This document shows positions 10,896-61,414 of a DNA stretch of 64,000 bases, piece by piece. Made by a program: the position numbers and the translations under genes. Within the stretch, counting starts at the first letter, position 1. Every line of letters starts with the position of its first letter. Source of the stretch: Mobula hypostoma (Eukaryota); assembly GCF_963921235.1 (NCBI RefSeq), contig NC_086097.1, positions 86,058,001-86,122,000 of the forward strand, read 5' to 3'. The notes below the pieces were generated by a model. That model saw only the letters and a program-made list of their open reading frames with translations, had not been told where the DNA came from and ran no database searches.

Positions 10896-13231
10896 GTGTC
10901 ACTGACTAAATGTTCTAGAATGCCAGTCCTTGAGAAGAGGCTTCACAACACATCAACAGCGTGTGAGGCTGCAGTGGAGGCTATTGGGAACACTGCTGGC
11001 CATTTTGTAGCTGCATCCACTATTACCAAGAAATTTGTGTCCATGAATGGTCCGGCAAAATCCACGTGAATCCTCTGCCAGGCCAATGAATGCCATTACC
11101 AGGGATGGAGAGGTGCTGCTCTTGGGGTCTTTTGGATGTGTTGGCATCCTGAACAGTGCATGGCAAGCTGTTCAATCTGTTGATCTATCCCAGGCCACCA
11201 GACAAAGCTTCGAGCCAACACCTTCATTTTGTCCACACCTAGATGACCAGCACGTAGCTCCTCCAACACATTAGCTTTTATCTGGGATGGTATAGCAACT
11301 TTCAATCTCCATCTATGGCAACCCCTTCAAGGGCAAAATCATCCCGGCACTGGTAAAAATAGGGGAACTGGAATTTCTGCTGCACATTCCAGCTATTTTG
11401 GGTTGCTATGTAGACCTGAGACTGTGTGGGGTCTTTTCTGCTTTCCTTAGGGATCATCTCTGCTGTAATAGGAAGCATTTCTTGGCATTAGGGAGAATAT
11501 GTCAAGAGGAGTGTCCTCTTTTGTAAAGTTTTCAGGTATTTCCTTTTCCGAGGGTAAACATGACAATCCATCAGCATATCTATGATTGGTTGTCCTCTTG
11601 AATTCAATCTAGTAATTGTTTCCTCTAGAGATCAGCGTCCATTTCTGCCCTCGTGTCACTGCTGTTAGTGGAAAATCCTGCTGTGGATTGAAAGTGAACA
11701 CTAGTGGTTGATGATCAGTAATGAGGGTAAACCCCCTCCCGTATTTTACACCCCAGACCAGACTCAAGGTTTCTCTGTCAATCTGTGCATAATTAATCTC
11801 TGCAGCAGTAAGGGAACGTGATGCAAAGGCTCCGGGGCGCTCACTTCCATCACTCATAACATGTGACATGACTGTACCAATACCATAAGGCGAGGCCTCA
11901 CAGGCAAGCTTCCCTGATCTGTAGTAATGAGCTCGAGGGGAGGAGCACAGTAGCCAGGCTTGGCAGGAACCTGTTATAGTAATTGATAAATCCTAAATAG
12001 GACCACAATTGTGACACGTCCGCTTGCCTTGGGGCATCTACCATTGCTTGAATGTTCTCAGCACACTGGTGTAATCCCTGTGCGTCAATAATCTGATGAC
12101 AGTAAGTGATGCTAGATTTAAATAATTCATCCCAACAGTAAGTCGGCTATAGCAATAAAGCCCTTTTTGAGTTTATATGGTGAGAAACACTTTTGACTGT
12201 TCTTCCATCTCCATTTTAGGTAGACTTTAGCTAAGCCACTTTGCTGAAGTATTTCCCTCCAGAACGGTTTGCAGAGATATTATATATCCTGGGCAGAGGA
12301 TATTGATCTACTTTAAGTATTGGGTTGATGGTGAACTTAAAATCAGCAGAGATCCTAATAGACCCATTCTTCTTGGCTGCTGGAACAACTGACATTGCCC
12401 ATGGGCTCCACTCAACTTGGAAAGAATTCTTACAGCCTTCATGAGATTTAGCTCACTGGCTACTTTATTACGGATGTTATAAGGAACCGGACAGGCTTCA
12501 TAAAATTTGCTGTGGCATTTTCATTTAATACCAGTTTACCCCTGATATGCTTGCGTTTTCCAGTGCCATCCTTGAGCACTGCTGTGGCATCATCCAGTAG
12601 CTTTCTTAATTCACTTTCAGTTGGCACTATTACAGGGGATGTGGCATGCAAATGGCAGATGGATCTCCAATCAAGTCATAGTTGTCTCAGCCACTCAAAG
12701 CCCCACAATACTGACCTTCCCACGTTTTACCACATACAAGATTTTGATTACTGTGTAGAAAGTTACAAATGTAATTCCCCAGAAATTATCTTCTCTCCAG
12801 TTTAAGTTCTTAGCGGGATATTTACAGCCTTCAGTTTAGTCTATTTGAAATGCCCATCACACTCATTTTGTTGAATGACTGAAATAGCCAAGGCAATGTC
12901 CAATACCATTTTAATTAATTTGCCATTCACTTCTGGTGTAAGCCATATTGCTTGTCTACTTTTAGTTTTCACATTTAAATCTCAAGGCTACATAGTCCTG
13001 TGTCATTATTATCATTATCATATTTTTCACACACAGCATGCAGATTAGTGTTGCTTTTGAAACTGTAACTTTTTAGCTTTTCCTCTTCCCTGTGCAGTCT
13101 ATTTTTTTTTCCTGCCTGGTATGCTCTCTGTATGTGTCCTACTTTGTTACACTTTCTGCAAGTTTTGCCTTTAAATATGCATTGGTCTGGTGTATGTGAG
13201 CCCCTGCCACAATGATAACACAAGCTGTTTA

Positions 13232-49342: not shown

Positions 49343-50535
49343 CTAAGGCTTTTGACAAGGTCCCACACAGGAGATTAGTGTGCAAACTTAAAGCACACGG
49401 TATTGGGGGTAAGGTATTGGTGTGGGTGGAGAATTGGTTGGCAGACAGGAAGCAAAGAGTGGGAATAAACGGGACCTTTTCAGAATGGCAGGCGGTGACT
49501 AGTGGGGTACCGCAAGGCTCAGTGCTGGGACCCCAGTTGTTTACAATATATATTAATGACTTGGATGAGGGAATTGAATGCAGCATCTCCAAGTTTGCGG
49601 ATGACACGAAGCTGGGTGGCAGTGTTAGCAGTGAGGAGGATGCTAAGAGGATGCAGGGTGACTTGGATAGGTTGGGTGAGTGGGCAAATTCATGGCAGAT
49701 GCAATTTAATGTGGATAAATGTGAAGTTATCCACTTTGGTGGCAAAAATAGGAAAACAGATTATTATCTGAATGGTGGCCGATTAGGAAAAGGGGAGGTG
49801 CAACGAGACCTGGGTGTCATTATACACCAGTCATTGAAAGTGGGCATGCAGGTACAGCAGGCGGTGAAAAAGGCGAATGGTATGCTGGCATTTATAGAGA
49901 GAGGATTCGAGTACAGGAGCAGGGAGGTACTACTGCAGTTGTACAAGGCCTTGGTGAGACCACACCTGGAGTATTGTGTGCAGTTTTGGTCCCCTAATCT
50001 GAGGAAAGACATCCTTGCCATAGAGGGAGTACAAAGAAGGTTCACCAGATTGATTCCTGGGATGGCAGGACTTTCATATCAAGAAAGACTGGATGAACTG
50101 GGCTTGTACTCGTTGGAATTTAGAAGATTGAGGGGGGATCTGATTGAAACGTATAAAATCCTAAAGGGATTGGACAGGCTAGATGCAGGAAGATTGTTCC
50201 CGATGTTGGGGAAGTCCAGAACGAGGGGCCACAGTTTGAGGATAGAGGGGAAGCCTTTTAGGACCGAGATTAGGAAAAACTTCTTCACACAGAGAGTGGT
50301 GAATCTGTGGAATTCTCTGCCACAGGAAACAGTTGAGGCCAGTTCATTGGCTATATTTAAGAGGGAGTTAGATATGGCCCTTGTGGCTACAGGGGTCAGG
50401 GGGTATGGAGGGAAGGCTGGGGTGGGGTTCTGAGTTGGATGATCAGCCATGATCATAATAAATGGCGGTGCAGGATCGAAGGGCCGAATGGCCTACTCCT
50501 GCACCTATTTTCTATGTTTCTATGTTTCTAAGGCT
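49343..50535 (+). mobile_element. Young 5'-truncated CR1 with TSD
   Basis: Uninterrupted RT C-terminal frame to stop 50433 (VPQGSVLGP, KFADDTK, RPHLEYCVQFWSP), (TTTCTATG)n tail, and CTAAGGCT repeated at 49343-49350 and 50528-50535. Confidence 0.93.
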
Positions 50536-50853
50536 AAATGTCTACCTTTCAAGTTTTCAACAGCAGCCAGCAGAAAATGATACTTTAAATGACAAAGTAA
50601 TGGAGCAACCATTAACAAGCAAAACTTTGCAGTAATCGGATTGGTGATCGACTGCATCTAAAAATGGGACAACAATGCGTATACTAGTACCTGTCACTTG
50701 AAACTTAAAGCCCCAAAAATGGAAGTCAGACCCAGTAAAAATGCCATTAAAATGTTCTCAGCCTGTGCACTAAGTGTAAAAGTGGCTTTTGAATCTGATA
50801 TCTGAAGAAGAATTAATTCCATTCACAAAATCGTGGGTGCTTTTTATTGTCAC
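50513..50853 (+). repeat. 341-bp direct duplication, copy 1
   Basis: Identical by eye to 55808-56148 (offset 5295). Confidence 0.93.
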
Positions 50854-51713
50854 TGTTACGTACCCCGTAACTGGGTTGCCAAACCAGCAGAAATGGATCA
50901 CTCAGTTGGAGTCTGGAGTACTAGAACTAAGAAAGTTTTATTAAAGAAACAAGCAACACAGTAATCGAAAGGATAATAAATGCAACAGTTCAGCGATGAT
51001 AAACACACATGTGCACAGAATTAAGATAACAGCATCAATCAAGCTCTATCGTTGTCTAGGGGTAAATGACCAAATTTCAAAGTGACTCAAAGTTCAGTCC
51101 AGTTTAGTAGTTCAGTTCGCAGTAATCGTTGCCATGGCGATGGACAACGTGGGGGAAGAGAGAGAGGGAACAGGAACAACTGATCATTCAGACACGGCTT
51201 CACTCACAGACCGGCGAGATGGCTCACAAGCAGCTTTTGGGCGGGTCCTTGGTGATGTCACCTGAGGTCACCGACTGTGACCCATCCTCCAGATGCGGTC
51301 GATCCTCTGCAGTGAACCCGGCACCCAGGCAAGGGCGGACACACACCGGGTTCCCGCTGATCGTACCTTTCCACCCTGGCCGTTGTCTGGTACTTCCCAC
51401 CGACTCGTGAGAAGTGTACCGCTTCCAGGGTCTCGTTACCTCGGGTGGTGTGTGTCCTGCCTTAGCAAACCGGTCCCTTTTTATCCCCCTGCTGGGGTAT
51501 CGCCTGTCCATCACTTCAAACAGTTCAGGGTTCAAAGGGGGAGCCGCTCCAGACAGCTCTCTCTCCCACGTCCCTTCATTACACATCTCCAGACGCTGCT
51601 CCATTGTTCCTTATCTCTCCTTCCCCTGAAGGCAGGTGGCAGACCACTTGCTGATGTCACTGATGCTAACCTAGGCCAGCAAACATCTTAATTTTATGTG
51701 TATTCTCGTCACA
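50854..51713 (-). repeat. 3' LTR (860 bp, complete)
   Basis: TGTTACG...CGTCACA inverted ends. Minus-strand AATAAA at 50937-50942. Confidence 0.92.
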
Positions 51714-51730
51714 CTTCCCCCCTTTAAGGA
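51714..51730 (-). other. Polypurine tract
   Basis: cttcccccctttaagga reads AAAGGGGGGAAG on the minus strand, abutting the 3' LTR. Confidence 0.85.
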
Positions 51731-51834
51731 TTTTTACCGGGAGGTAAAAATTACAAACATGAATACATTATTTGATACATACACAAATATACATCTTTAT
51801 CAGCTATTTGGCTAACACAGCGAGTTTGAAGCTG

Positions 51835-52957
51835 TCAACACCTTGACAGACAGTCATCGCATTTTCTGTTCCTTTTACATGGGTTATTAATAATCCCTTA
51901 GACCAGACTCCAACTCAGCAAACTTCATAGTGGCCAAAAACACTGATGAATTGCGACCAATGTAACCTCTCATTTGGTTTTGTCCCGGACCACAATAATA
52001 AGGGTCGTCCCATTCCGACTCAGTTTTCTCTCGCAAGGGCTTAGTAGGAGGGGGACGGGTATTGACCGCAGAGTTATTGCAAAACTTCCTGCAGTACCCC
52101 ACCATCTCCAAGAGCCTTCTGAGGGCCCTCTTGTCTGTCGGGGTTGGGAGGTCAGCGATAGCCTGCACTGTAGCTTGCATCGCTGCCAGCTGCCCCTGTG
52201 TCACCACAATTCCCAGGTAAGTGACCTTCGTGTGGCCGAACTCATTTTTTTCAAGGTTCACTATCAAGCTGGCTTCAGACAGTCGTATTACTTTGCCAAT
52301 ACACACCTCTGTGTTCGTCAGCCCTTTTGTCACTGAATTACTCATTCTATATGGTTGTTGCTCGCTAGATTAGCCTAGTGGAACAAACACCACCCAACGT
52401 CCCAGTTCTTTGCATCGCCTCGGGACAATCAAACACACGTGTGCGAGTCGTTTAGTTACTTCTCCTAAAGAGTCGCTTTGTTCGGGGATTAAGGGAGAGA
52501 CCTTATCAGCAGCGCTGGCCAAAACAATAGCCTTCTCCCATCTGGTCGATACCATACTCATCTTTTCAAAATGGTTTTTTTCTCTTATCAGGGGGACCCT
52601 AGCTTCATTGATTTCCGCGCTAACACCGACTAGGTTTATTAGCATATCAAAAGCCTGTGACCGTCTCAGTTCGCGTCGGCCATAATCAATAACATCCTTC
52701 CTCCGGTGCAGCCAGTAAACCTCTTTCATGATTCGACCAATTGTTCCCTCCAGTACCGCAAAATGTCCACCGGGGGGTACCTTGTGGGCCAGGTTAAAAA
52801 CCTCATCCCCATAACTCTTTTGCACCACCCCCCATTCCTCATCTGCGGGTACGGTACTTGGTCTCCCTTTCTTCCTTAGCACTTCCTCCTCCGCACAATA
52901 GCCTACTAGTTCCCTTGTTAAGTCTGTGTCAGAGAGAGCTGTCTCCGCCCAATCCAT
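51835..52957 (-). pseudogene. pol: Internally deleted pol remnant (INT zinc finger, RT C-terminus, RNase H end)
   Basis: LAHKVPPGGHF...YWLHRRKDV, then VNLEKNEFGHTKVTYLG...LPTPTDKRALRRLLEMVGYCRKF, then HVKGTEN..DCLSR near 51840-51880. No DDE core and no YxDD. Confidence 0.8.
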
Positions 52958-54861
52958 CAGCTCCTCGTCCCGCTCCTGTGCCTGTATAAAGTCCCCCCGG
53001 CTAATGCTAAGTCTGCCTCAGCTCCCTCACTTCCTCTTGTTTCATTTCGTTCCGTCTTTCCACTTTCTATTTCCCCCCCGTACAGGGTGGGCAGAAACGT
53101 TTCAGCTAAATTTATATCAGCCTCTGCAGCTTTCCTCGCCATCCGCCGAGTTACTGCGCAAATGGGATAAACCTGCGAGTCCACGGGCGGGGCCTCCATG
53201 CTGGCAGGCTGACTTGTCAGCCTCACGGCGGGGAACACATTTCCTCCCGCGAGGTCATTTCCGAGCAAGACTTCCACGTCTTTCATCGGTAACTCGGACC
53301 TCACCCCGATCGTGCCTAGTCCAGAGACCAAGTTGCTTTGTAGGTGTATCTGGTGCAAAGGCATGGCTTCAGTCCCTTGTCCAATGCCCTTTATCACACT
53401 GACCTCCCCAGTCTCAGTCTCTGAGCTAAACTCTAATACACTCTTCAGTATTAGTGACTGACACGCTCCCGTGTCTCTCCAGATCCGCACTGGAACTGGT
53501 TTTAACCCCTCCTTCACTGACACCAATCCGGCCGAGATAAACCTCTCGCGTCCTTCCTGGACTTTTTCAGACCTGTCCTTCCCTAGCGGTTCGCTTAACA
53601 GCTCAATACAGCCATTCAACATTGCCGTCTTTCCTTTTCCCGTCTCCTTCTTTGGGGCAAAGCACCTGGACGCAAAGTGTCCGACTTTCCCACAATTATA
53701 ACAGACAACCCCAGGAGACTTCCTACCAGACTGCTCCCGGTCTACCTTATCCTTTTCACTAGTCCCCGGCTTACTTTCTGACTTTTCCGGCGGACTCTCC
53801 CCACCGTCCTGACTACCCTTCTGGTAGCCTTTACTCGGGGAAAACTTCATTTTATGCGTCAACGCATACTCATCCGCTAACTTAGCAGTTGCGGCTAACG
53901 TGGCTGCCTCTTTCTCATCGAGGTAGGGTCTCATACTCTCAGAGACACAACCTTTAAACTGCTCAATCAGGATCAGTTGTAGCAGTCTGTCATAATCCCC
54001 CTCTACCCCCTTCGAGGCGCACCAACGCTCACAATATGTTTGCATCTCACGGGCAAACTCCAAATACGTGCGGTCCCACTGCTTCCTCGCATTCCGGAAC
54101 CTCTGCCGGTATGCCTCCGGGACCAACTCATAAATCCTGAGGATGGCCTCTTTCACCACCTCATACCTCTGGGCATCTTCCGCGGACAAAGCTGAGTAAG
54201 CTTGTTGGGCTTTCCCTTTCAGTACACTCTGAAGTAAGACAACCCACTTATCCCTCGGCCAGTCCTGACTTATAGCCACTTTTTCGAAGTGGAGAAAGTA
54301 CCGATCCACGTCGGTATCGTCAAATGGGGGAACCAGCCTAACCTCCTGGGTCGCCCGGAACCCTCCACCTTGGTTCGGCACGAGCCCCTGCTCGGCCCTT
54401 ATCTTTAACTCCTCCAGCTCAAATTCCCTTTCCCTCTGTTTCCCTCTCTCTTCTCGCTCCCATTGCCTCTCTTTCTTCTCTCTCTCTAACTGTCTGTCCC
54501 TCTCTTTCTCTTCTCTCTCCAACTGTCTTTCTCTCTCTTTCTCTTTCTCCCGCCTTTCTAACTGCTTCTCTTCGTGTTCTAACTGCCGTACCCGGAACTC
54601 GTGCTCGAGTCTCAGTTTTTCAAGCTGTACCTGTACCGCGTCTCCAGCAGGTTTTTCAATAGACACCACCCCCAGCTCACCTTGGGGAAACACACCTTTA
54701 GATACATAGTGCTCTACAATAGCTCTGTGTATCTCCTCTCTCCTCATTGTCGACTTCACCTTAGCAAGATTCAACCGTTTGGCCACAGTTATCAATTCCG
54801 ATTTCCTGGCATCCCCTAATGCCTCCAAGGTCGGCGCCTTTATAAATTCCTCAGCCTCCAT
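52957..54861 (-). CDS. gag: Gag-protease: E/R/K coiled coil, capsid with SCAN-like domain, CCHC knuckle, aspartyl protease
   Basis: Open 634-aa ORF with PEAYRQRFR...LILIEQF...AKLADEY, CYNCGKVGHFASRC, RDTGACQS and LLGND. Confidence 0.9.
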   Translation of the reverse strand: MEAEEFIKAPTLEALGDARKSELITVAKRLNLAKVKSTMRREEIHRAIVEHYVSKGVFPQGELGVVSIEKPAGDAVQVQLEKLRLEHEFRVRQLEHEEKQLERREKEKERERQLEREEKERDRQLEREKKERQWEREERGKQREREFELEELKIRAEQGLVPNQGGGFRATQEVRLVPPFDDTDVDRYFLHFEKVAISQDWPRDKWVVLLQSVLKGKAQQAYSALSAEDAQRYEVVKEAILRIYELVPEAYRQRFRNARKQWDRTYLEFAREMQTYCERWCASKGVEGDYDRLLQLILIEQFKGCVSESMRPYLDEKEAATLAATAKLADEYALTHKMKFSPSKGYQKGSQDGGESPPEKSESKPGTSEKDKVDREQSGRKSPGVVCYNCGKVGHFASRCFAPKKETGKGKTAMLNGCIELLSEPLGKDRSEKVQEGRERFISAGLVSVKEGLKPVPVRIWRDTGACQSLILKSVLEFSSETETGEVSVIKGIGQGTEAMPLHQIHLQSNLVSGLGTIGVRSELPMKDVEVLLGNDLAGGNVFPAVRLTSQPASMEAPPVDSQVYPICAVTRRMARKAAEADINLAETFLPTLYGGEIESGKTERNETRGSEGAEADLALAGGTLYRHRSGTRS

Positions 54862-54937
54862 TTCTGCTGTTTGTCTTTTCTTTCTTTCGGGAATTTTAAC
54901 CCAATCAATTTACTCCGTCCCAAATTTAGCGTTCAAA

Positions 54938-54955
54938 ATCCCGGACGAGCCCCCA
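54938..54955 (-). other. tRNA-Pro primer binding site
   Basis: The minus strand reads TGGGGGCTCGTCCGGGAT, the 18-nt complement of the vertebrate tRNA-Pro 3' end, 4 nt inside the 5' LTR. Confidence 0.92.
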
Positions 54956-54959
54956 CTTA

Positions 54960-55808
54960 TGTTACGTACCCCGTAACTGGGTTGCCAAACCAGCAGAAAT
55001 GGATCACTCAGTTGGAGTCTGGAGTACTAGAACTAAGAAAGTTTTATTAAAGAAACAAGCAACACAGTAATCGAAAGGATAATAAATGCAACAGTTCAGC
55101 GATGATAAACACACATGTGCACAGAATTAAGATAACAGCATCAATCAAGCTCTATCGTTGTCTAGGGGTAAATGACCAAATTTCAAAGTGACTCAAAGTT
55201 CAGTCCAGTTTAGTAGTTCAGTTCGCAGTAATCGTTGCCATGGCGATGGACAACGTGGGGGAAGAGAGAGAGGGAACAGGAACAACTGATCATTCAGACG
55301 CGGCTTCACTCACAGACCGGCGAGGTGGCTCACAAGCAGCTTTTGGGCGGGTCCTTGGTGATGTCACCTGAGGTCACCGACTGTGACCCCTCCTCCAGAT
55401 GCGGTCGATCCTCTGCAGTGAACCCGGCACCCAGGCAAGGGTGGACACACACCGGGTTCCCGCTGATCGTACCTTTCCACCCTGGCCGTTGTCTGGTACT
55501 TCCCACCGACTCGTGAGAAGTGTACCGCTTCCAGGGTCTCGTTACCTCGGGTGGCGTGTGTCCTGCCTTAGCAAACCGGTCCGTTTTTATCCCCCTGCTG
55601 GGGTATCGCCTGTCCATACTTCAAACAGTTCAGGGTTCAAAGGGGGAGCCGCTCCAGACAGCTCTCTCTCCCACGTCCCTTCATTACACATCTCCAGACG
55701 CTGCTCCATTGTTCCTTATCTCTCCTTCCCCTGAGGGCAGGTGGCAGACCACTTGCTGATGTCACTGATGCTAACCTAGGCCAGCAAACATCTTAATTTT
55801 ATGTGTAT
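54960..55808 (-). repeat. 5' LTR, outer 10 nt missing
   Basis: Matches 50854-51703 (7 substitutions, 1 indel) and lacks the terminal tctcgtcaca. Confidence 0.92.
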
Positions 55809-56148
55809 ATGTTTCTATGTTTCTAAGGCTAAATGTCTACCTTTCAAGTTTTCAACAGCAGCCAGCAGAAAATGATACTTTAAATGACAAAGTAATGGAG
55901 CAACCATTAACAAGCAAAACTTTGCAGTAATCGGATTGGTGATCGACTGCATCTAAAAATGGGACAACAATGCGTATACTAGTACCTGTCACTTGAAACT
56001 TAAAGCCCCAAAAATGGAAGTCAGACCCAGTAAAAATGCCATTAAAATGTTCTCAGCCTGTGCACTAAGTGTAAAAGTGGCTTTTGAATCTGATATCTGA
56101 AGAAGAATTAATTCCATTCACAAAATCGTGGGTGCTTTTTATTGTCAC
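55808..56148 (+). repeat. 341-bp direct duplication, copy 2
   Basis: Identical by eye to 50513-50853. Confidence 0.93.
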
Positions 56149-57081
56149 TTAATGATTAACATTGAATTCAACTGTGCTCAGAAAAGTGACCAGATTCAAC
56201 ATCAAGGCCATATTTCCAGAAGGGTGAGTGATTGGTATTTTGTCTGATAAATGGCAATATGAAGGCTCGAATGTGAAAAATTGATCCATTATTCAGGTCC
56301 CCATCCTTGACCAGTAACACCAGGCTAGAAAGTGGAGGTGTGTGGGAGAAAGAGCAGTCTACATTCCCTGGCTGTACAGTCAACTGGCATTTCAGCAAAT
56401 CTGGGGTAGTTGCAATCAAGGTGAACTTGCCTAGTTTTGGCTAAAAATAAATTCAAGGATTTGGACCATTTTGTGTATTTTTTAAGTGGCAACTTTCTGT
56501 GGAAATCACACTTGTCACAAAACAGAGCCTGACATTTCAACCTGCATGATGCTAAGTTCTGTCCCGCTGAAAGAAAATGGAGTCTATCATGTCTTTCACT
56601 TTTAACTTGCAATAAAACAAGGTGCAGTTCTCAGGATGAGTGATCTCATGATTACAAAATGAGGCAGGTTGCACCAGCTACTAAGTCACTGATACATCCA
56701 CAACTGGAGTATAAAGTATGGAATTTGCCTCAATATTCTTCCCAACAGCAATATCCTGGAGGTTACCATTGACAAGAAGTTGAATGAGAACAATCACATA
56801 CATAATGTAACTACAGGGAAAGTGGATACTGGGTATCCTGTGGTGAGCAACTCACCCTCTGATCTCCCAACGCTTTTCCTCCATTTACCAGCCACAAGAA
56901 TGTGATCAGATACTCTCCACTTGCAATTCCAAAAACATCCAAGAAACCAGACATGGAAGAAAGCGGCCTGTTTGATGGGGGTCTGATTTTAAAACCTAAC
57001 ATCCATTCCCTCCATTACCAACACATAGTGACTGTACTATATACCATTTGCAAAGCGCACTGCAGTAGCTTCTACAAACTA

Positions 57082-57207
57082 TTCCAACAGCACCTCATAA
57101 ACCCCAGACCATTCTAACAGCACTTCATAACCCCAGACCATTCTAACAGCAGCTCATAACCCCAGACCATTCTAACAGCAGCTCATAACCCCAGACTATT
57201 CCAGCAG
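57082..57207 (+). repeat. Minisatellite, ~29-bp unit, ~4 copies
   Basis: ttctaacagcagctcataaccccagacca repeated, inside an old LINE-like remnant (~56690-57420). Confidence 0.85.
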
Positions 57208-58822
57208 GAACTGATAAACTCACTGTCCCTAATATCAAAGAGAACAAAGACAGCAACTGTCAAAGAATATCATCTATATATCTGCAGCTCCTCAGCATCC
57301 CTGGGTCTTAATCCTGAAATGCTCTGTCCATTGCACTGCAAAGGCTCAAGAACAGAGCTCGCTACCACATTCTTAAGGGCATTTGGGGATGAGAAATAAA
57401 TGCAGATGCAACCAGTGACAACCCATGCTCCAAAAAAATGAATAAACAAAGAAAAGTGACGTGCCCAGAGTGTAAATTAATTCCTTCAAATTAGCTGTGT
57501 TATGCAATATCTAAAAGCAACAGAACCATGGATAATTGATGTTGCACAGTAGCAGGCACCAAAAAAAAATGCACAAACCTGGCACAGATTCCAATTACCA
57601 AGCAAGCCAATACTCAAATTTATTGAGCTAATTACAAACTTCGTATTTTAGGAAGCATTACTGTTTTTGCTGTCACACCTTTTTTTAAACATGCTCTTGT
57701 TCAGGAAGATAATTCAAACTAATTAATGCTAACCTAGCCACTGAAATAAATGTAAAATAACACTATGTTCCAGCAGACTTCTGCAGTGATTAATGGTGGC
57801 ATTTGATCTAACACAGTTTTCCACAGAGCATTGATAGTCGGTAAGTACAATGAAAGAGTGGAAAGGAAAATGTTGTTATTAGATGGTCTGGTTAGGGTTG
57901 TTTTTCAATATTCTGACTCAGTTACAGTCTTGTCCGCTGTGAGGTAGGCTGAAGCACCCACGTCGGATGGTCATGGTGTGTAAGTTTTTTTGAGTGACAT
58001 CCAAGTCTCATTCACAGCAAAAGATACATCTTCCTGAAGCAGAGCCACCCTTCCTTCAGTGGGAAAGGTGTAGGTTTCTGCAAGTAAAACAAAGTGAGGC
58101 ATTTTATGTTTAATGAAACCAGTAACACATTTCATTGAACTCCAAAACCTACACAACAAAAATGCACTAAAAACCTTTTATGCAATAAAACCATCACATC
58201 AGACCAGCCTCTTAAAGTGAAGCCCTCACTCAATGTTGGTGGTTGTGAATTATGTACATTTCTTTCAATACATTACCCTACACAGGACCTCCAGAGTTCA
58301 CTAAAACCAGAACCGTGAACCCCTCTGGAGCTCAGACCAGCCACCCTGCTCAGTCCAGTGTTCCATGGGTGGAGGAACAGCAGGAGCCTCTGGCTTGTCC
58401 ATAGATGCGTTGACATGCTCGTGGTCATGTTCTGATGCCAGGGGCATGGCAGCTGAATGCACCAAATCTTGGTGGGACGGTTTAAGGCAATCTACTGAAA
58501 TATGTTCAGGTTTACCCCTCTTATCTATGATAAAAGTCTTTTCTTCCCATTCCAAAACACAGAATGGGCCATCGTAAGGGGGCCTAAGGGGATGTTGATA
58601 TGCATCATGGCGGATGAAATCAAACGAGGCAGAATCTAGGTCCATAGGAACCCAAGAGTTCAGTACACCACAATGGGAGGTTGGAACAGGTGAAAAGGAA
58701 TTGAATTTACTGAGAAAGGTAGAATGCTGTTGAGAGGCTAACCAGGTGGTCGTGGCATCAGGAATGATATCACCTGGCACTTGTAATGGCTGCCCATATT
58801 CAAGCTCAGCCACGGACAACTG

Positions 58823-60166
58823 GGTTACAGAGTACCTGGAGGCATATGACAAGATAGGCAGAACTCAGCACGGGTTCCTTAAAGGAAAATCCTGCCTGAC
58901 AAACCTATTATAATTTTTTGAGGAAATTACCAGTAGGTTAGACAAGGGAGATGTAGTGGATGTTGTATATTTGGATTTTCAGAAGGCCTTTGACAAGGTG
59001 CCACACATGAGGCTACTTAACAAGATAAGAGCCCATGGAATTACGGGACAGTTACATACGTGGATAGAGCGTTGGCTGATTGGCAGGAAACAGAGAGTGG
59101 GAATAAAGGGATCCTATTCTGGTTGGCTGCTGGTTACCAGTGGTGTTCCACAGGGGTCCGTGTTGGGGCTGTTCCTTTTTACATTGTACATCAACGATTT
59201 GGATTATGGAATAGATGGCTTTGTGACTAAGTTTGCTGACGATACGAAGATAGGTGGAGGGGCCGGTAGTGCTGAGGAAACAGAGAGTCTGCAGAGAGAC
59301 TTGGATAGATTGGAAGAATGGGCAGAGAAGTGGCAAATGAAGTACAATGTTGGAAAGTATATGGTTATGCACTTTGGCAGAAAAAATAAACGGGCAGACT
59401 ATTATTTAAATGGGGAAAGAATTCAAGGTTCTGAGATGCAACGGGACTTGGGAGTCCTCGTACAGGATACCCTTAAAGTTAACCTCCACGTTGAGTCAGT
59501 AGTGAAGAAGGTGAATGCAATGTTGGCATTCATTTCTAGAGGAATAGAGTATAGGAGCAGGGATGTAATGTTGAGGCTCTATAAGGCACTGGTGAGACCT
59601 CACTTGGAGTACTGTGGGCAGTTTTGGTCTCCTTATTTCAGAAAGAATGTGCTGACGTTGGAGAGGGTACAGAGAAGATTCACTGGAATGATTCCGGGAA
59701 TGAGAGGGTTAACATATGAGGAACGTTTGTCCGCTCTTGGACTGTATTCCTTGGAGTTTAGAAGAATGAGGGGAGACCTCATAGAAACATTTCGAATGTT
59801 GAAAGGCATGGACAGAGTGGATGTGGCAAAGTTGTTTCCCATGATGGGGGAGTCTAGTACGAGAGGGCATGACTTAAGGATTGAAGGGCGCCCATTCAGA
59901 ACAGAAATGCAAAGAAATTTTTTTAGTCAGAAGGTGGTGAATCTATGGAATTTGTTGCCACGGGCAGCAATGGAGGCCAAGTCATTGGGTGTATTTAAGG
60001 CAGAGATTGATAGATATCTGAGTAGCCAGGGCATCAAAGGTTATGGTGAGAAGGCGGGGGAGTGGGACTAAATGGGAGAATGGATCAGCTCATGATAAAA
60101 TGGCGGAGCAGACTCGATGGGCCAAATGGCCAACTTCTGCTCCTTTGTCTTATGGTTTTATGGTCT
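58823..60166 (+). mobile_element. Young 5'-truncated CR1 nested in the Gypsy integrase
   Basis: 371-aa open RT frame 58956..60071. TSD AACTG (58818-58822, 60167-60171); excision restores EDLQLSVAELEYG. Confidence 0.92.
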
Positions 60167-61414
60167 AACTGCAGATCCTCCTTTGGAGCTGTTCTGAGCC
60201 CTAGTAGGACCCCTGAGAGCTGATCATACCAACACTCATCGGTCAGGGAAGGCATCAGAGCAGTGAATCCACTCGTATAGGCCATTGGACCGTGGGTGAT
60301 ATGCCATGGTGTGCTGTATCCTAACATCAAGGTTCTGGGCCATTGCAGCCCAACGGTCTGCAGTGAATTGGGAACCGCGGTCAGAGGAAATATCGGATGG
60401 GGTGTCTAACAGAGCAACACAAGATGAACACTCTAGCCATGTCTGTGGCCGTTGTCAGTGCTAGAGGGACAACCTCTGGCACCCTGGTGGTACAGTCCAC
60501 CACGGTAAAAAGGTGTGTGAAACCGCATGAGGGGGGAAGAGGACAAACAAGGACTACATTGACATGGTCAAACAGTCACTCAGGGACCTCAAAAGAAGCC
60601 AGTGGCACATGAACATGATGGTTAATTTTTGCCCACTGACACTCCACACGAGCTGCGGTCCAATCATGCACATCCTTTCTGAGGCCGTGCCAAACAAACT
60701 TTAGCGCAACCATTTTCCGTGAGGCCTTCCACCCTGGATGCAAGAAGCCATGTATGGAGTCAAAAGCTGTCCATCTCCAGTTTGTGGCAGGTTGGAACAA
60801 AGGTGACTGGTTGAGACATTGCACAGGAGAGAAACCCCACCCTCCCTGAACTTAACATCAGCCTGTGACTGCTGTTCGGAAAGCCTGAGTCCATAGCTTG
60901 GTTGGCTGCTATGCTGGCATAATCAACCCCTATGTTTACGGCCTCAATGGCTGGCTGTAAGAGACAATTGGCCATGGCATTATTTTCCCCCCTGATATGT
61001 TGTGTATCTGTTGAGAACTCGGTGTTGTTGCTGTTAGACCAAGGGTCTGATATTTTGGGCATTGCCTGCACAAAGGGTTTATGGTCAATGAATGCTGTGA
61101 AATGGTGACCCTCTAGAAAAAAATGGAAATGGTGGACAGCCAGGCAGAGAATGAAAGCTCATAGTCAAATGTGCTGTATTTCCTTTTGGGGAGATGGAGC
61201 TGCTGACGGCCACACACCTTCGACCAACTGTTCGTGCACATCACCCACAGCATAATCTGAAGCGTCAGTAGTAATGGCTATGGGTGCATTGGGGAGCGGG
61301 TGTATTAGTCGGGTCACGTTAGAAAGAGCTTGTTTGGTATCATTGAATGCCCTGGTCATGTCCGCTGACCAGTCAAACACTTGATTAGGAGTATTGCCTT
61401 TAATCGCACTATAC

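What the first reader, a model, noticed from the sequence alone, without database searches (positions are those of the whole stretch)
50513..56148. LTR element with one clipped end and a perfect 341-bp flanking duplication instead of a short TSD
Seen: the left junction is a canonical LTR end (CA on the minus strand at 50854). The right LTR lacks its terminal 10 nt and joins, over a 1-nt overlap, a second exact copy of the 341 bp that precede the element. Established: Gypsy integrases make 4-6 bp TSDs, and retroviral DNA with one unusable end can integrate with one integrase-made junction and one host-repair junction, producing long duplications. Inference: this is a germ-line fossil of one-ended integration. 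The duplication starts inside the (TTTCTATG)n tail of the neighbouring CR1, so the CR1 came first and the tatgt-like similarity between LTR end and tail may have guided repair.
Basis: partly seen in the sequence, partly recalled or inferred. Interest (0 to 1): 0.72.

Follow-up and report, generated by a model that had tools for sequence, protein, structure and literature searches.

The report
One-ended retrotransposon insertion, 341-base duplication
A jumping gene in a ray genome landed cleanly at one end only, and the cell's repair machinery most likely attached the other, clipped end while copying 341 bases of neighbouring DNA; this is a real but already described kind of accident, known from retroviruses.

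Summary
A 4.96-kb minus-strand Gmr1-like Ty3/Gypsy element (SCAN-gag, protease region, integrase piece before RT piece; internally deleted) has a processed U5 end at 50854 and a U3 end lacking 10 nt at 55808. An exact 341-bp host duplication flanks it.

Contigs built from public runs support it. In species A the 341-bp segment is a separate contig at about twice the depth of the downstream flank, with two exits. A related species B has one contiguous empty site with a single copy and neither the element nor the CR1. No listed contig bridges the clipped junction itself, so an artefact is unlikely (about 7%), not excluded.

Best reading (0.68): integrase joined U5; the free, trimmed U3 3' end primed host synthesis in the CR1 tail. 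Strand polarity fits. A guiding microhomology is not shown: 1 nt in register.

The phenomenon and this explanation are already in print for RSV/HIV and for germ-line HERV-K (61-450-bp duplications). My searches found no matching Gypsy example. A clean new member of a known kind.

The parts
49343..49350 (+). 5' copy of the 8-bp target-site duplication of the CR1 (overlaps the CR1's truncated 5' end)
   Evidence: longest exact match between the CR1 5' junction and the post-tail sequence
49351..50527 (+). 5'-truncated young CR1-type LINE with open RT frame and (TTTCTATG)n tail; inserted before the LTR element; absent in species B (inferred)
   Evidence: 364-codon open frame, RVT_1 E 5e-20; B's contig match begins at the TSD and has 718 nt of other sequence upstream. 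The CR1 label rests on tail type and recall.
50513..50853 (+). Copy 1 of the 341-bp host duplication: 15 nt CR1 tail, 8 nt CR1 TSD (50528-50535), 318 nt unique; ends in GTCAC, an RYXRY-type target word
   Evidence: RYXRY from PMC4422553 passages
50854..51713 (-). 3' LTR, full length 860 nt, TG...CA; U5 end joined exactly at the CA (processed end)
   Evidence: TATA-like word near 51484, AATAAA near 50942
51714..51725 (-). Polypurine tract
   Evidence: sequence next to the 3' LTR
51890..52300 (-). Remnant of reverse transcriptase (C-terminal part only)
   Evidence: phmmer to Ty3 RT 4OL8 residues 237-314, E 7e-6; no Pfam hit
52373..53017 (-). Remnant of integrase (H2C2 zinc-binding region); no catalytic-core Pfam hit; lies upstream of the RT remnant, in another frame than gag-pro
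   Evidence: Integrase_H2C2 E 0.003, below the curated cut-off; tblastn with relatives
52957..54861 (-). gag-protease frame with SCAN domain and CCHC knuckle
   Evidence: Pfam SCAN E 1e-12, zf-CCHC E 5e-6; 81-88% identical to the top seven Mobula proteins; protease motif read by eye, no Pfam hit
54938..54959 (-). Primer-binding site, separated from the LTR's CA by 4 nt (tRNA-Pro type by recall)
   Evidence: sequence; tRNA identity recalled, not tested
54960..55808 (-). 5' LTR lacking its first 10 nt (clipped U3 end); last base shared with copy 2
   Evidence: other family copies carry the full end (loose ends in 15, 19, 9 and 10 contigs)
55808..56148 (+). Copy 2 of the 341-bp duplication, identical to copy 1, followed by unique host DNA
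   Evidence: separate contig at 1.7x and 2.2x the downstream depth in species A; single copy in species B

Best explanation
One-ended integration of a non-autonomous Gmr1-like Ty3/Gypsy retrotransposon in the germ line. (1) A helper integrase processed the U5 end and joined its CA-3' to the host minus strand at 50853/50854 (junction shown; enzyme inferred). (2) The U3 end was not joined. Its 3' end, which lies on the window's + strand, lost 10 nt (shown) and primed host DNA synthesis on the same chromosome, a sister or the homologue, 341 bp upstream inside the CR1 tail (inferred). (3) Synthesis ran through the target site and was resolved to the downstream flank, leaving copy 1 - element - copy 2 (product shown; pathway inferred from the RSV/HIV model). 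Order of events: split of species A and B, CR1 insertion, then LTR insertion with duplication. It has no function of its own; it is a repair scar.
For: The U5 junction is exact at CA, without the 4 nt that lie between CA and the PBS. The target word is RYXRY-like (weak, 5% of sites). The second breakpoint lies 10 nt from an LTR end; a random break in the element would fall that near either end about 0.4% of the time. Both LTRs share a variant at 55777 carried by about 1% of family depth, so the clipped end is the element's own. The empty orthologous site has one copy: one 2006-nt contig in X5 and one 2009-nt contig in X8 cover 55823-56889 with 16 differences and 0 gaps. In A the segment is its own contig at depth 17.5 and 29.1, against 10.4 and 13.1 downstream; bin arithmetic gives a second exit over 56120-56149 at 8.9 and 11.7. 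In X3 the contig starts exactly at 55808. The published model gives the same product: one normal junction, a truncated other end, duplications of hundreds of bp (PMC5041404).
Against: No listed contig bridges the clipped junction (32 of 1930 pieces shown). In X4 the segment's contig runs 6 letters further on the non-LTR side instead of breaking at 55808. The LTRs differ at 8 of 849 sites while the duplication differs at 0 of 341: Fisher p 0.11, Poisson P0 0.04, or 0.08 after allowing for CpG. This mildly favours a younger duplication. All 8 LTR differences lie beyond the first 340 nt (P 0.017 if uniform, though that part is CpG-poorer). Microhomology in register is only 1 nt. The family's normal TSD length could not be measured. 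One locus cannot separate repair during integration from repair soon after it.
Confidence: 0.68

Rival explanations
1. Normal two-ended integration with a short TSD, followed (at gap repair or later) by a break next to the U3 end. The break was repaired by a template switch to the empty homologue or sister at the CR1 tail, giving the same product.
For: The duplication is perfect while the LTRs differ by 0.9% (P0 0.04-0.08). Later rearrangement is offered for long HERV-K TSDs in PMC5488345.
Against: It needs the break to fall within 10 nt of an LTR end (about 0.4% by chance). The age difference is not significant (Fisher p 0.11). No contig entering the downstream flank from a full LTR end is listed.
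Confidence: 0.14
2. Assembly artefact: a filled and an empty haplotype were joined, so the clipped junction does not exist in DNA.
For: No bridging contig is listed; the X4 contig does not break at 55808. Equal exit depths and a doubled segment would also arise if one haplotype went from the segment into the LTR and lacked the downstream flank. Runs X1-X4 are one sample, possibly the assembled one.
Against: A simple heterozygous insertion with a short TSD predicts a depth ratio of about 1 and a second entry into the downstream flank. Observed: pooled ratio 1.98 and one 1035-nt downstream contig starting at 56120. The X3 contig starts at exactly the junction base. No N in the window.
Confidence: 0.07
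3. Integrase-independent capture: a replication template switch copied a 2-LTR circle, entering at the 5-nt word GTCAC (the host word left of the element equals part of the U3 terminus) and returning 341 bp upstream.
For: That word occurs at 0.08% of sites. Only about 5 nt of a circle junction would be lost.
Against: It needs a circle junction with both ends processed and one more base lost. The word is ancestral host sequence (no difference in B there) and fits an integrase target signature. It was noticed after the fact.
Confidence: 0.05
4. Uncoupled action of integrase on both ends: a mis-processed U3 end (ending in TA, not CA) was joined at a second site 341 bp away, and the long stagger was filled in.
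For: 1-nt overlap only, no filler bases; the clipped end can be read as ending in TA.
Against: Integrase normally trims 2-4 nt to a CA, not 10 nt past it (established, recalled).
Confidence: 0.04
5. Pseudo-TSD: the 341-bp tandem duplication existed first and the element inserted at its seam.
For: Model proposed for HERV-K in PMC5488345.
Against: Species B has a single copy. It needs insertion exactly at the seam plus an independent 10-nt loss. The copies are identical, so not older than the LTRs.
Confidence: 0.02

Closest known systems
Aberrant one-ended integrations of RSV/ASLV vectors and of HIV-1 under raltegravir/elvitegravir or with weak integrase (PMC5041404; Oh et al. 2006 and Varadarajan et al. 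2013 seen only as cited there)
   Same: One normal integrase junction; other end truncated; host DNA duplicated over hundreds of bp; proposed priming by the free viral 3' end on nearby host DNA.
   Different: Here the element is a Metaviridae-type (Gmr1-like) retrotransposon, not a retrovirus; natural and inherited, not drug- or mutant-induced; in-register microhomology only 1 nt.
Germ-line HERV-K(HML-2) loci with long target-site duplications (PMC5488345: 13-450 bp, 8 loci over 10 bp among 451 putative TSDs; PMC4422153; Mamedov et al. seen only as cited)
   Same: Inherited LTR element flanked by a near-perfect duplication of 61-450 bp; includes truncated proviruses (111 and 450 bp); empty sites known; PMC4422153 already links them to inefficient integration with host polymerases.
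   Different: Different element class and host. Here both LTRs survive, so the clipped end is mapped to 10 nt, and a young CR1 tail dates the order of events.
Gmr1-like Ty3/Gypsy retrotransposons (SCAN-gag; PR-IN-RT order; bioRxiv 10.1101/2025.03.03.638093, PMC4131045)
   Same: SCAN domain in gag; integrase remnant upstream of the RT remnant; LTRs TG...CA with PBS and PPT.
   Different: Internally deleted (no integrase-core or RT-core Pfam hit), so it must be moved in trans; long duplication in place of a short TSD.
Integrase-independent Tf1 insertion (PMC11042837)
   Same: An LTR retrotransposon joined by host repair, with truncation of one end.
   Different: Tf1 events use homology to PBS or PPT at the junction. 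Here no PBS-side letters are retained at U5 and that end is exact.

Membership tests
Gmr1-like Ty3/Gypsy retrotransposon | SCAN domain in gag | tested here: met
   PF02023 E 1e-12
Gmr1-like Ty3/Gypsy retrotransposon | pol order PR-IN-RT with a Ty3-type RT | tested here: met
   H2C2 remnant 52373-53017 precedes the RT remnant 51890-52300 on the minus strand; best PDB match is Ty3 RT; relatives carry SCAN + H2C2 + rve in one frame. The H2C2 hit is below the curated cut-off.
Gmr1-like Ty3/Gypsy retrotransposon | LTRs TG...CA, PBS, PPT | tested here: met
   5' LTR lacks its first 10 nt
Gmr1-like Ty3/Gypsy retrotransposon | Placement in the Gmr1 clade by RT phylogeny | not tested
   RT core absent from this copy; no tree built
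Canonical concerted LTR integration | 4-6-bp TSD and both ends intact | tested here: not met
   341-bp duplication, one end clipped
One-ended (aberrant) integration product | One exact, processed LTR-host junction | tested here: met
   U5 CA at 50854; 4 unprocessed nt absent
One-ended (aberrant) integration product | Other end truncated and joined to nearby host DNA, giving a long duplication absent from the empty site | tested here: met
   (single copy in species B); junction not bridged by a listed contig
One-ended (aberrant) integration product | Short homology at the aberrant junction (usual, not constant, per PMC5041404) | tested here: inconclusive
   1 nt in register; 9 of 12 at offsets 6, 8, 16; better matches elsewhere within 2 kb
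One-ended (aberrant) integration product | Duplication made at the time of integration | not testable with these tools
   0 of 341 against 8 of 849 differences, Fisher p 0.11; needs alleles or de novo insertions

The most novel reading that the evidence does not exclude
This internally deleted Gmr1-like subfamily, moved in trans by a helper integrase that fits its U3 end poorly, integrates one-endedly at a high rate. Its recent expansion in rays would then have seeded many 0.1-several-kb host duplications and deletions that TSD-requiring LTR finders discard, giving a natural, countable germ-line series for how host repair finishes half-integrated retroelement DNA.
Probability: 0.1. Interest if true: 0.6.

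Novelty: new member of a known kind. Interest (0 to 1): 0.3.

Why it matters
It extends a footprint known from retroviruses and HERV-K to a Ty3/Gypsy (Gmr1-like) retrotransposon. The case is unusually well resolved: both LTRs are kept, the clip is mapped to 10 nt, a relative holds the empty site, and the order is dated by a young CR1. Pipelines that demand a 4-6-bp TSD would drop such insertions, and a 341-bp direct repeat allows later clean excision that would mimic an empty allele. One locus does not change the mechanism's standing; only a family-wide count would.

Tried and rejected
No whole genome is held, so other copies of the LTR could not be surveyed for TSD length or clipping. A 22-nt LTR-end pattern gave 0 matches in metagenome contigs. 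The window holds no second copy of this LTR family. An early note that the LTR-LTR difference in the laid part was a family polymorphism was wrong: the difference is at 55735, the family-variable site at 55737 (corrected). So a chimeric origin of the LTRs is not supported. Depth in bin 55810-55849 exceeds the segment's contig in A, but also in B, so it cannot be used to count entries. CR1-driven TPRT of an antisense element RNA was considered because the clipped end abuts a CR1 tail, and set aside: it does not explain an exact processed U5 end. Earlier scan findings: nothing by place, sequence or 8 words; 8 of 19 notes shown for 4 words concern other element types and were not used. PMC2857682, PMC6911290 and PMC7145672 (passages) gave nothing relevant.
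Full report
OBSERVATION. The window holds an exact direct repeat, 50513-50854 = 55808-56149 (342 nt). Between the copies lies a minus-strand LTR element. Its 3' LTR (50854-51713, 860 nt) is complete and bounded TG...CA, with a polypurine tract beside it. Its 5' LTR (54960-55808, 849 nt) lacks the 10 nt equivalent to 51704-51713. The LTRs differ at 8 of 849 positions, 3 of the 7 substitutions being CpG transitions by my reading of the contexts. The window has no N.

WHAT THE ELEMENT IS. The long frame carries SCAN (E 1e-12) and a CCHC knuckle. Next comes an integrase zinc-binding remnant (E 0.003, below the curated cut-off), then an RT remnant whose best solved match is Ty3 RT (E 7e-6). SCAN plus the order PR-IN-RT is the description of Gmr1-like elements in passages of bioRxiv 10.1101/2025.03.03.638093 and, for SCAN, PMC4131045. 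No integrase-core or RT-core Pfam hit was found, so this copy depends on a helper (inference). The top seven relatives are Mobula hypostoma proteins at 81-88% identity. Two of them align across the shortened interior without large gaps, so the deleted form is a shared subfamily and the host is probably a myliobatiform ray (inference). No RT tree was built.

IS IT REAL? No genome is held. Sixteen runs were listed; I laid 4 of them, two of species A (one sample, possibly the assembled one) and two of species B, on 55690-56889. These are contigs built from reads, not reads.

In A the duplicated segment is a contig of its own, 55808-56149, at depth 17.5 (X3) and 29.1 (X4). The contig that leaves it into unique DNA starts at 56120 with depth 10.4 and 13.1: ratios 1.68 and 2.22, pooled 1.98. 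Arithmetic on two depth bins gives the same answer twice for a further contig over 56120-56149, depth 8.8/8.9 and 11.7/11.7. I read it as the exit into the LTR; its letters were not shown. Near-equal exits fit a homozygous or hemizygous locus better than a heterozygous one (rough binomial p 0.03 for heterozygous, treating depth as counts). In X3 the segment's contig begins at exactly 55808, where a second entry is expected.

Against this: none of the 32 pieces listed, of 1930, bridges 55808; no joint was reported; and in X4 the contig runs 6 letters further on the non-LTR side, so that graph kept no branch there. Excess depth just inside the segment cannot be assigned. I put an artefact at about 7%.

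THE EMPTY SITE. In B one contig per run (2006 and 2009 nt) covers 55823-56889 with 16 differences in 1067 letters and no gap, straight across the insertion point. So the ancestral site has one copy and no element, which refutes a pre-existing tandem copy at least for B. B's match begins at 55823, the copy-2 position of the first base of the CR1's 8-bp TSD (49343-49350 = 50528-50535), with 718 other letters upstream. B therefore most likely lacks the CR1 too (inference; those letters were not shown). Copy 2 starts with 15 nt of CR1 tail, so the order is: species split, CR1, then element and duplication. Other family copies carry the full U3 end: loose ends at 55808 in 15, 19, 9 and 10 contigs (contigs, not loci). 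Both LTRs here share a T at 55777 where about 99% of family depth in A reads C, so the clipped end is the element's own.

MECHANISM. Four nucleotides separate the U5 CA from the primer-binding site, and none is present at the left junction: a processed, integrase-type end. The five host bases beside it form an RYXRY word, the signature described for 5-bp-TSD retroviruses in PMC4422553 (passages); this is weak, since 5% of sites fit. The U3 end's free 3' strand is the window's + strand. Trimming it by 10 nt and priming at 50513 extends rightwards through the segment into the downstream flank, which is the observed product. The Discussion of PMC5041404 (read whole; other passages) gives this model: one end inserted by integrase, the other often truncated, primed on nearby DNA by a host polymerase and resolved to give a deletion or a duplication of hundreds to thousands of bp. 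A random later break would fall within 10 nt of an LTR end about 0.4% of the time, which ties the event to a free end or an integration intermediate.

In register the last 12 nt match 3 of 12; 9 of 12 match at offsets 6, 8 and 16 in the tail (chance about 1.5% within 17 registers, post hoc), which would need slippage by a repeat unit. Two better matches (10 of 12) lie elsewhere within 2 kb. The perfect duplication beside 0.9% LTR divergence mildly favours a later date (P0 0.04, or 0.08 with CpG allowed for; Fisher p 0.11). I give one-ended integration 0.68, later rearrangement 0.14, artefact 0.07, circle capture 0.05, uncoupled integrase action 0.04 and pseudo-TSD 0.02.

WHAT IS KNOWN. PMC5488345 (parts 2 and 3 of 4 read) lists 8 HERV-K loci with flanking duplications over 10 bp (13-450 bp) among 451 putative TSDs. 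They include a truncated provirus with 111 bp, and validated empty alleles at two loci. It offers later rearrangement as an alternative. PMC4422153 (passages) attributes such loci, among them a 3'-truncated provirus with 450 bp, to inefficient integration and cites the RSV work and host polymerases. So 'germ-line fossil of one-ended integration' is already in print for endogenous retroviruses. For LTR retrotransposons, PMC8090852 (passages) reports unexplained somatic TSDs with medians of 23-26 bp in three Drosophila families, and PMC11042837 (passages) describes integrase-independent Tf1 insertion. Searches showed no Gypsy or Gmr1 case with a clipped end and a duplication of hundreds of bp. 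The library lacks most subscription journals, and I saw only listings for most hits, so this is no proof of absence. I opened no supplements; those of PMC5488345 may record LTR-end clipping at its loci. Mamedov et al., Oh et al. 2006 and Varadarajan et al. 2013 I saw only as citations. The normal TSD length of Gmr1 elements was neither found nor measured.

VERDICT. Real with about 90% confidence, well resolved, and best read as a one-ended integration scar. It is a new member of a known kind; interest 0.3. It would rise to about 0.6 if a family survey showed that this helper-dependent subfamily does it often (probability about 0.1).

Noticed in passing
window 49343-50535: Young 5'-truncated CR1-type LINE with an 8-bp TSD that overlaps its 5' end (microhomology-type junction) and a 364-codon open frame; apparently absent from the related species B, so a usable presence/absence marker.
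   Followed up: partly
window 51890-53017: The shortened integrase/RT interior aligns without large gaps to Mobula hypostoma proteins P0003 and P0005, pointing to a shared non-autonomous Gmr1-like subfamily.
   Followed up: partly
window 55690-55809 (table 2): Summed contig depth over the LTR is about 15-30 times higher in species A than in B, against 2.5 times for the unique flank; suggests a recent expansion in A (depth is not copy number).
   Followed up: no
window 50854-51193 against 51194-51703: All 8 LTR-LTR differences lie beyond the first 340 nt (P 0.017 if uniform); partly explained by lower CpG content; gene conversion not excluded.
   Followed up: partly
window 50849-50853: The five host bases left of the element equal five bases of the LTR's U3 terminus (0.08% of sites); chance, target preference or circle capture.
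   Followed up: partly
window 58301-61158 and 10898-11302: Older, degraded Gypsy-type remnants on the minus strand (RNase H-like and integrase-like pieces); the one near 58-61 kb appears interrupted by a CR1 at about 58825-60164.
   Followed up: no
window 57081-57219: 29-bp minisatellite, about 4 copies, 93% matches.
   Followed up: no
window 56730-56809: Short piece of a multi-copy repeat with loose ends at about 56785 in both species.
   Followed up: no
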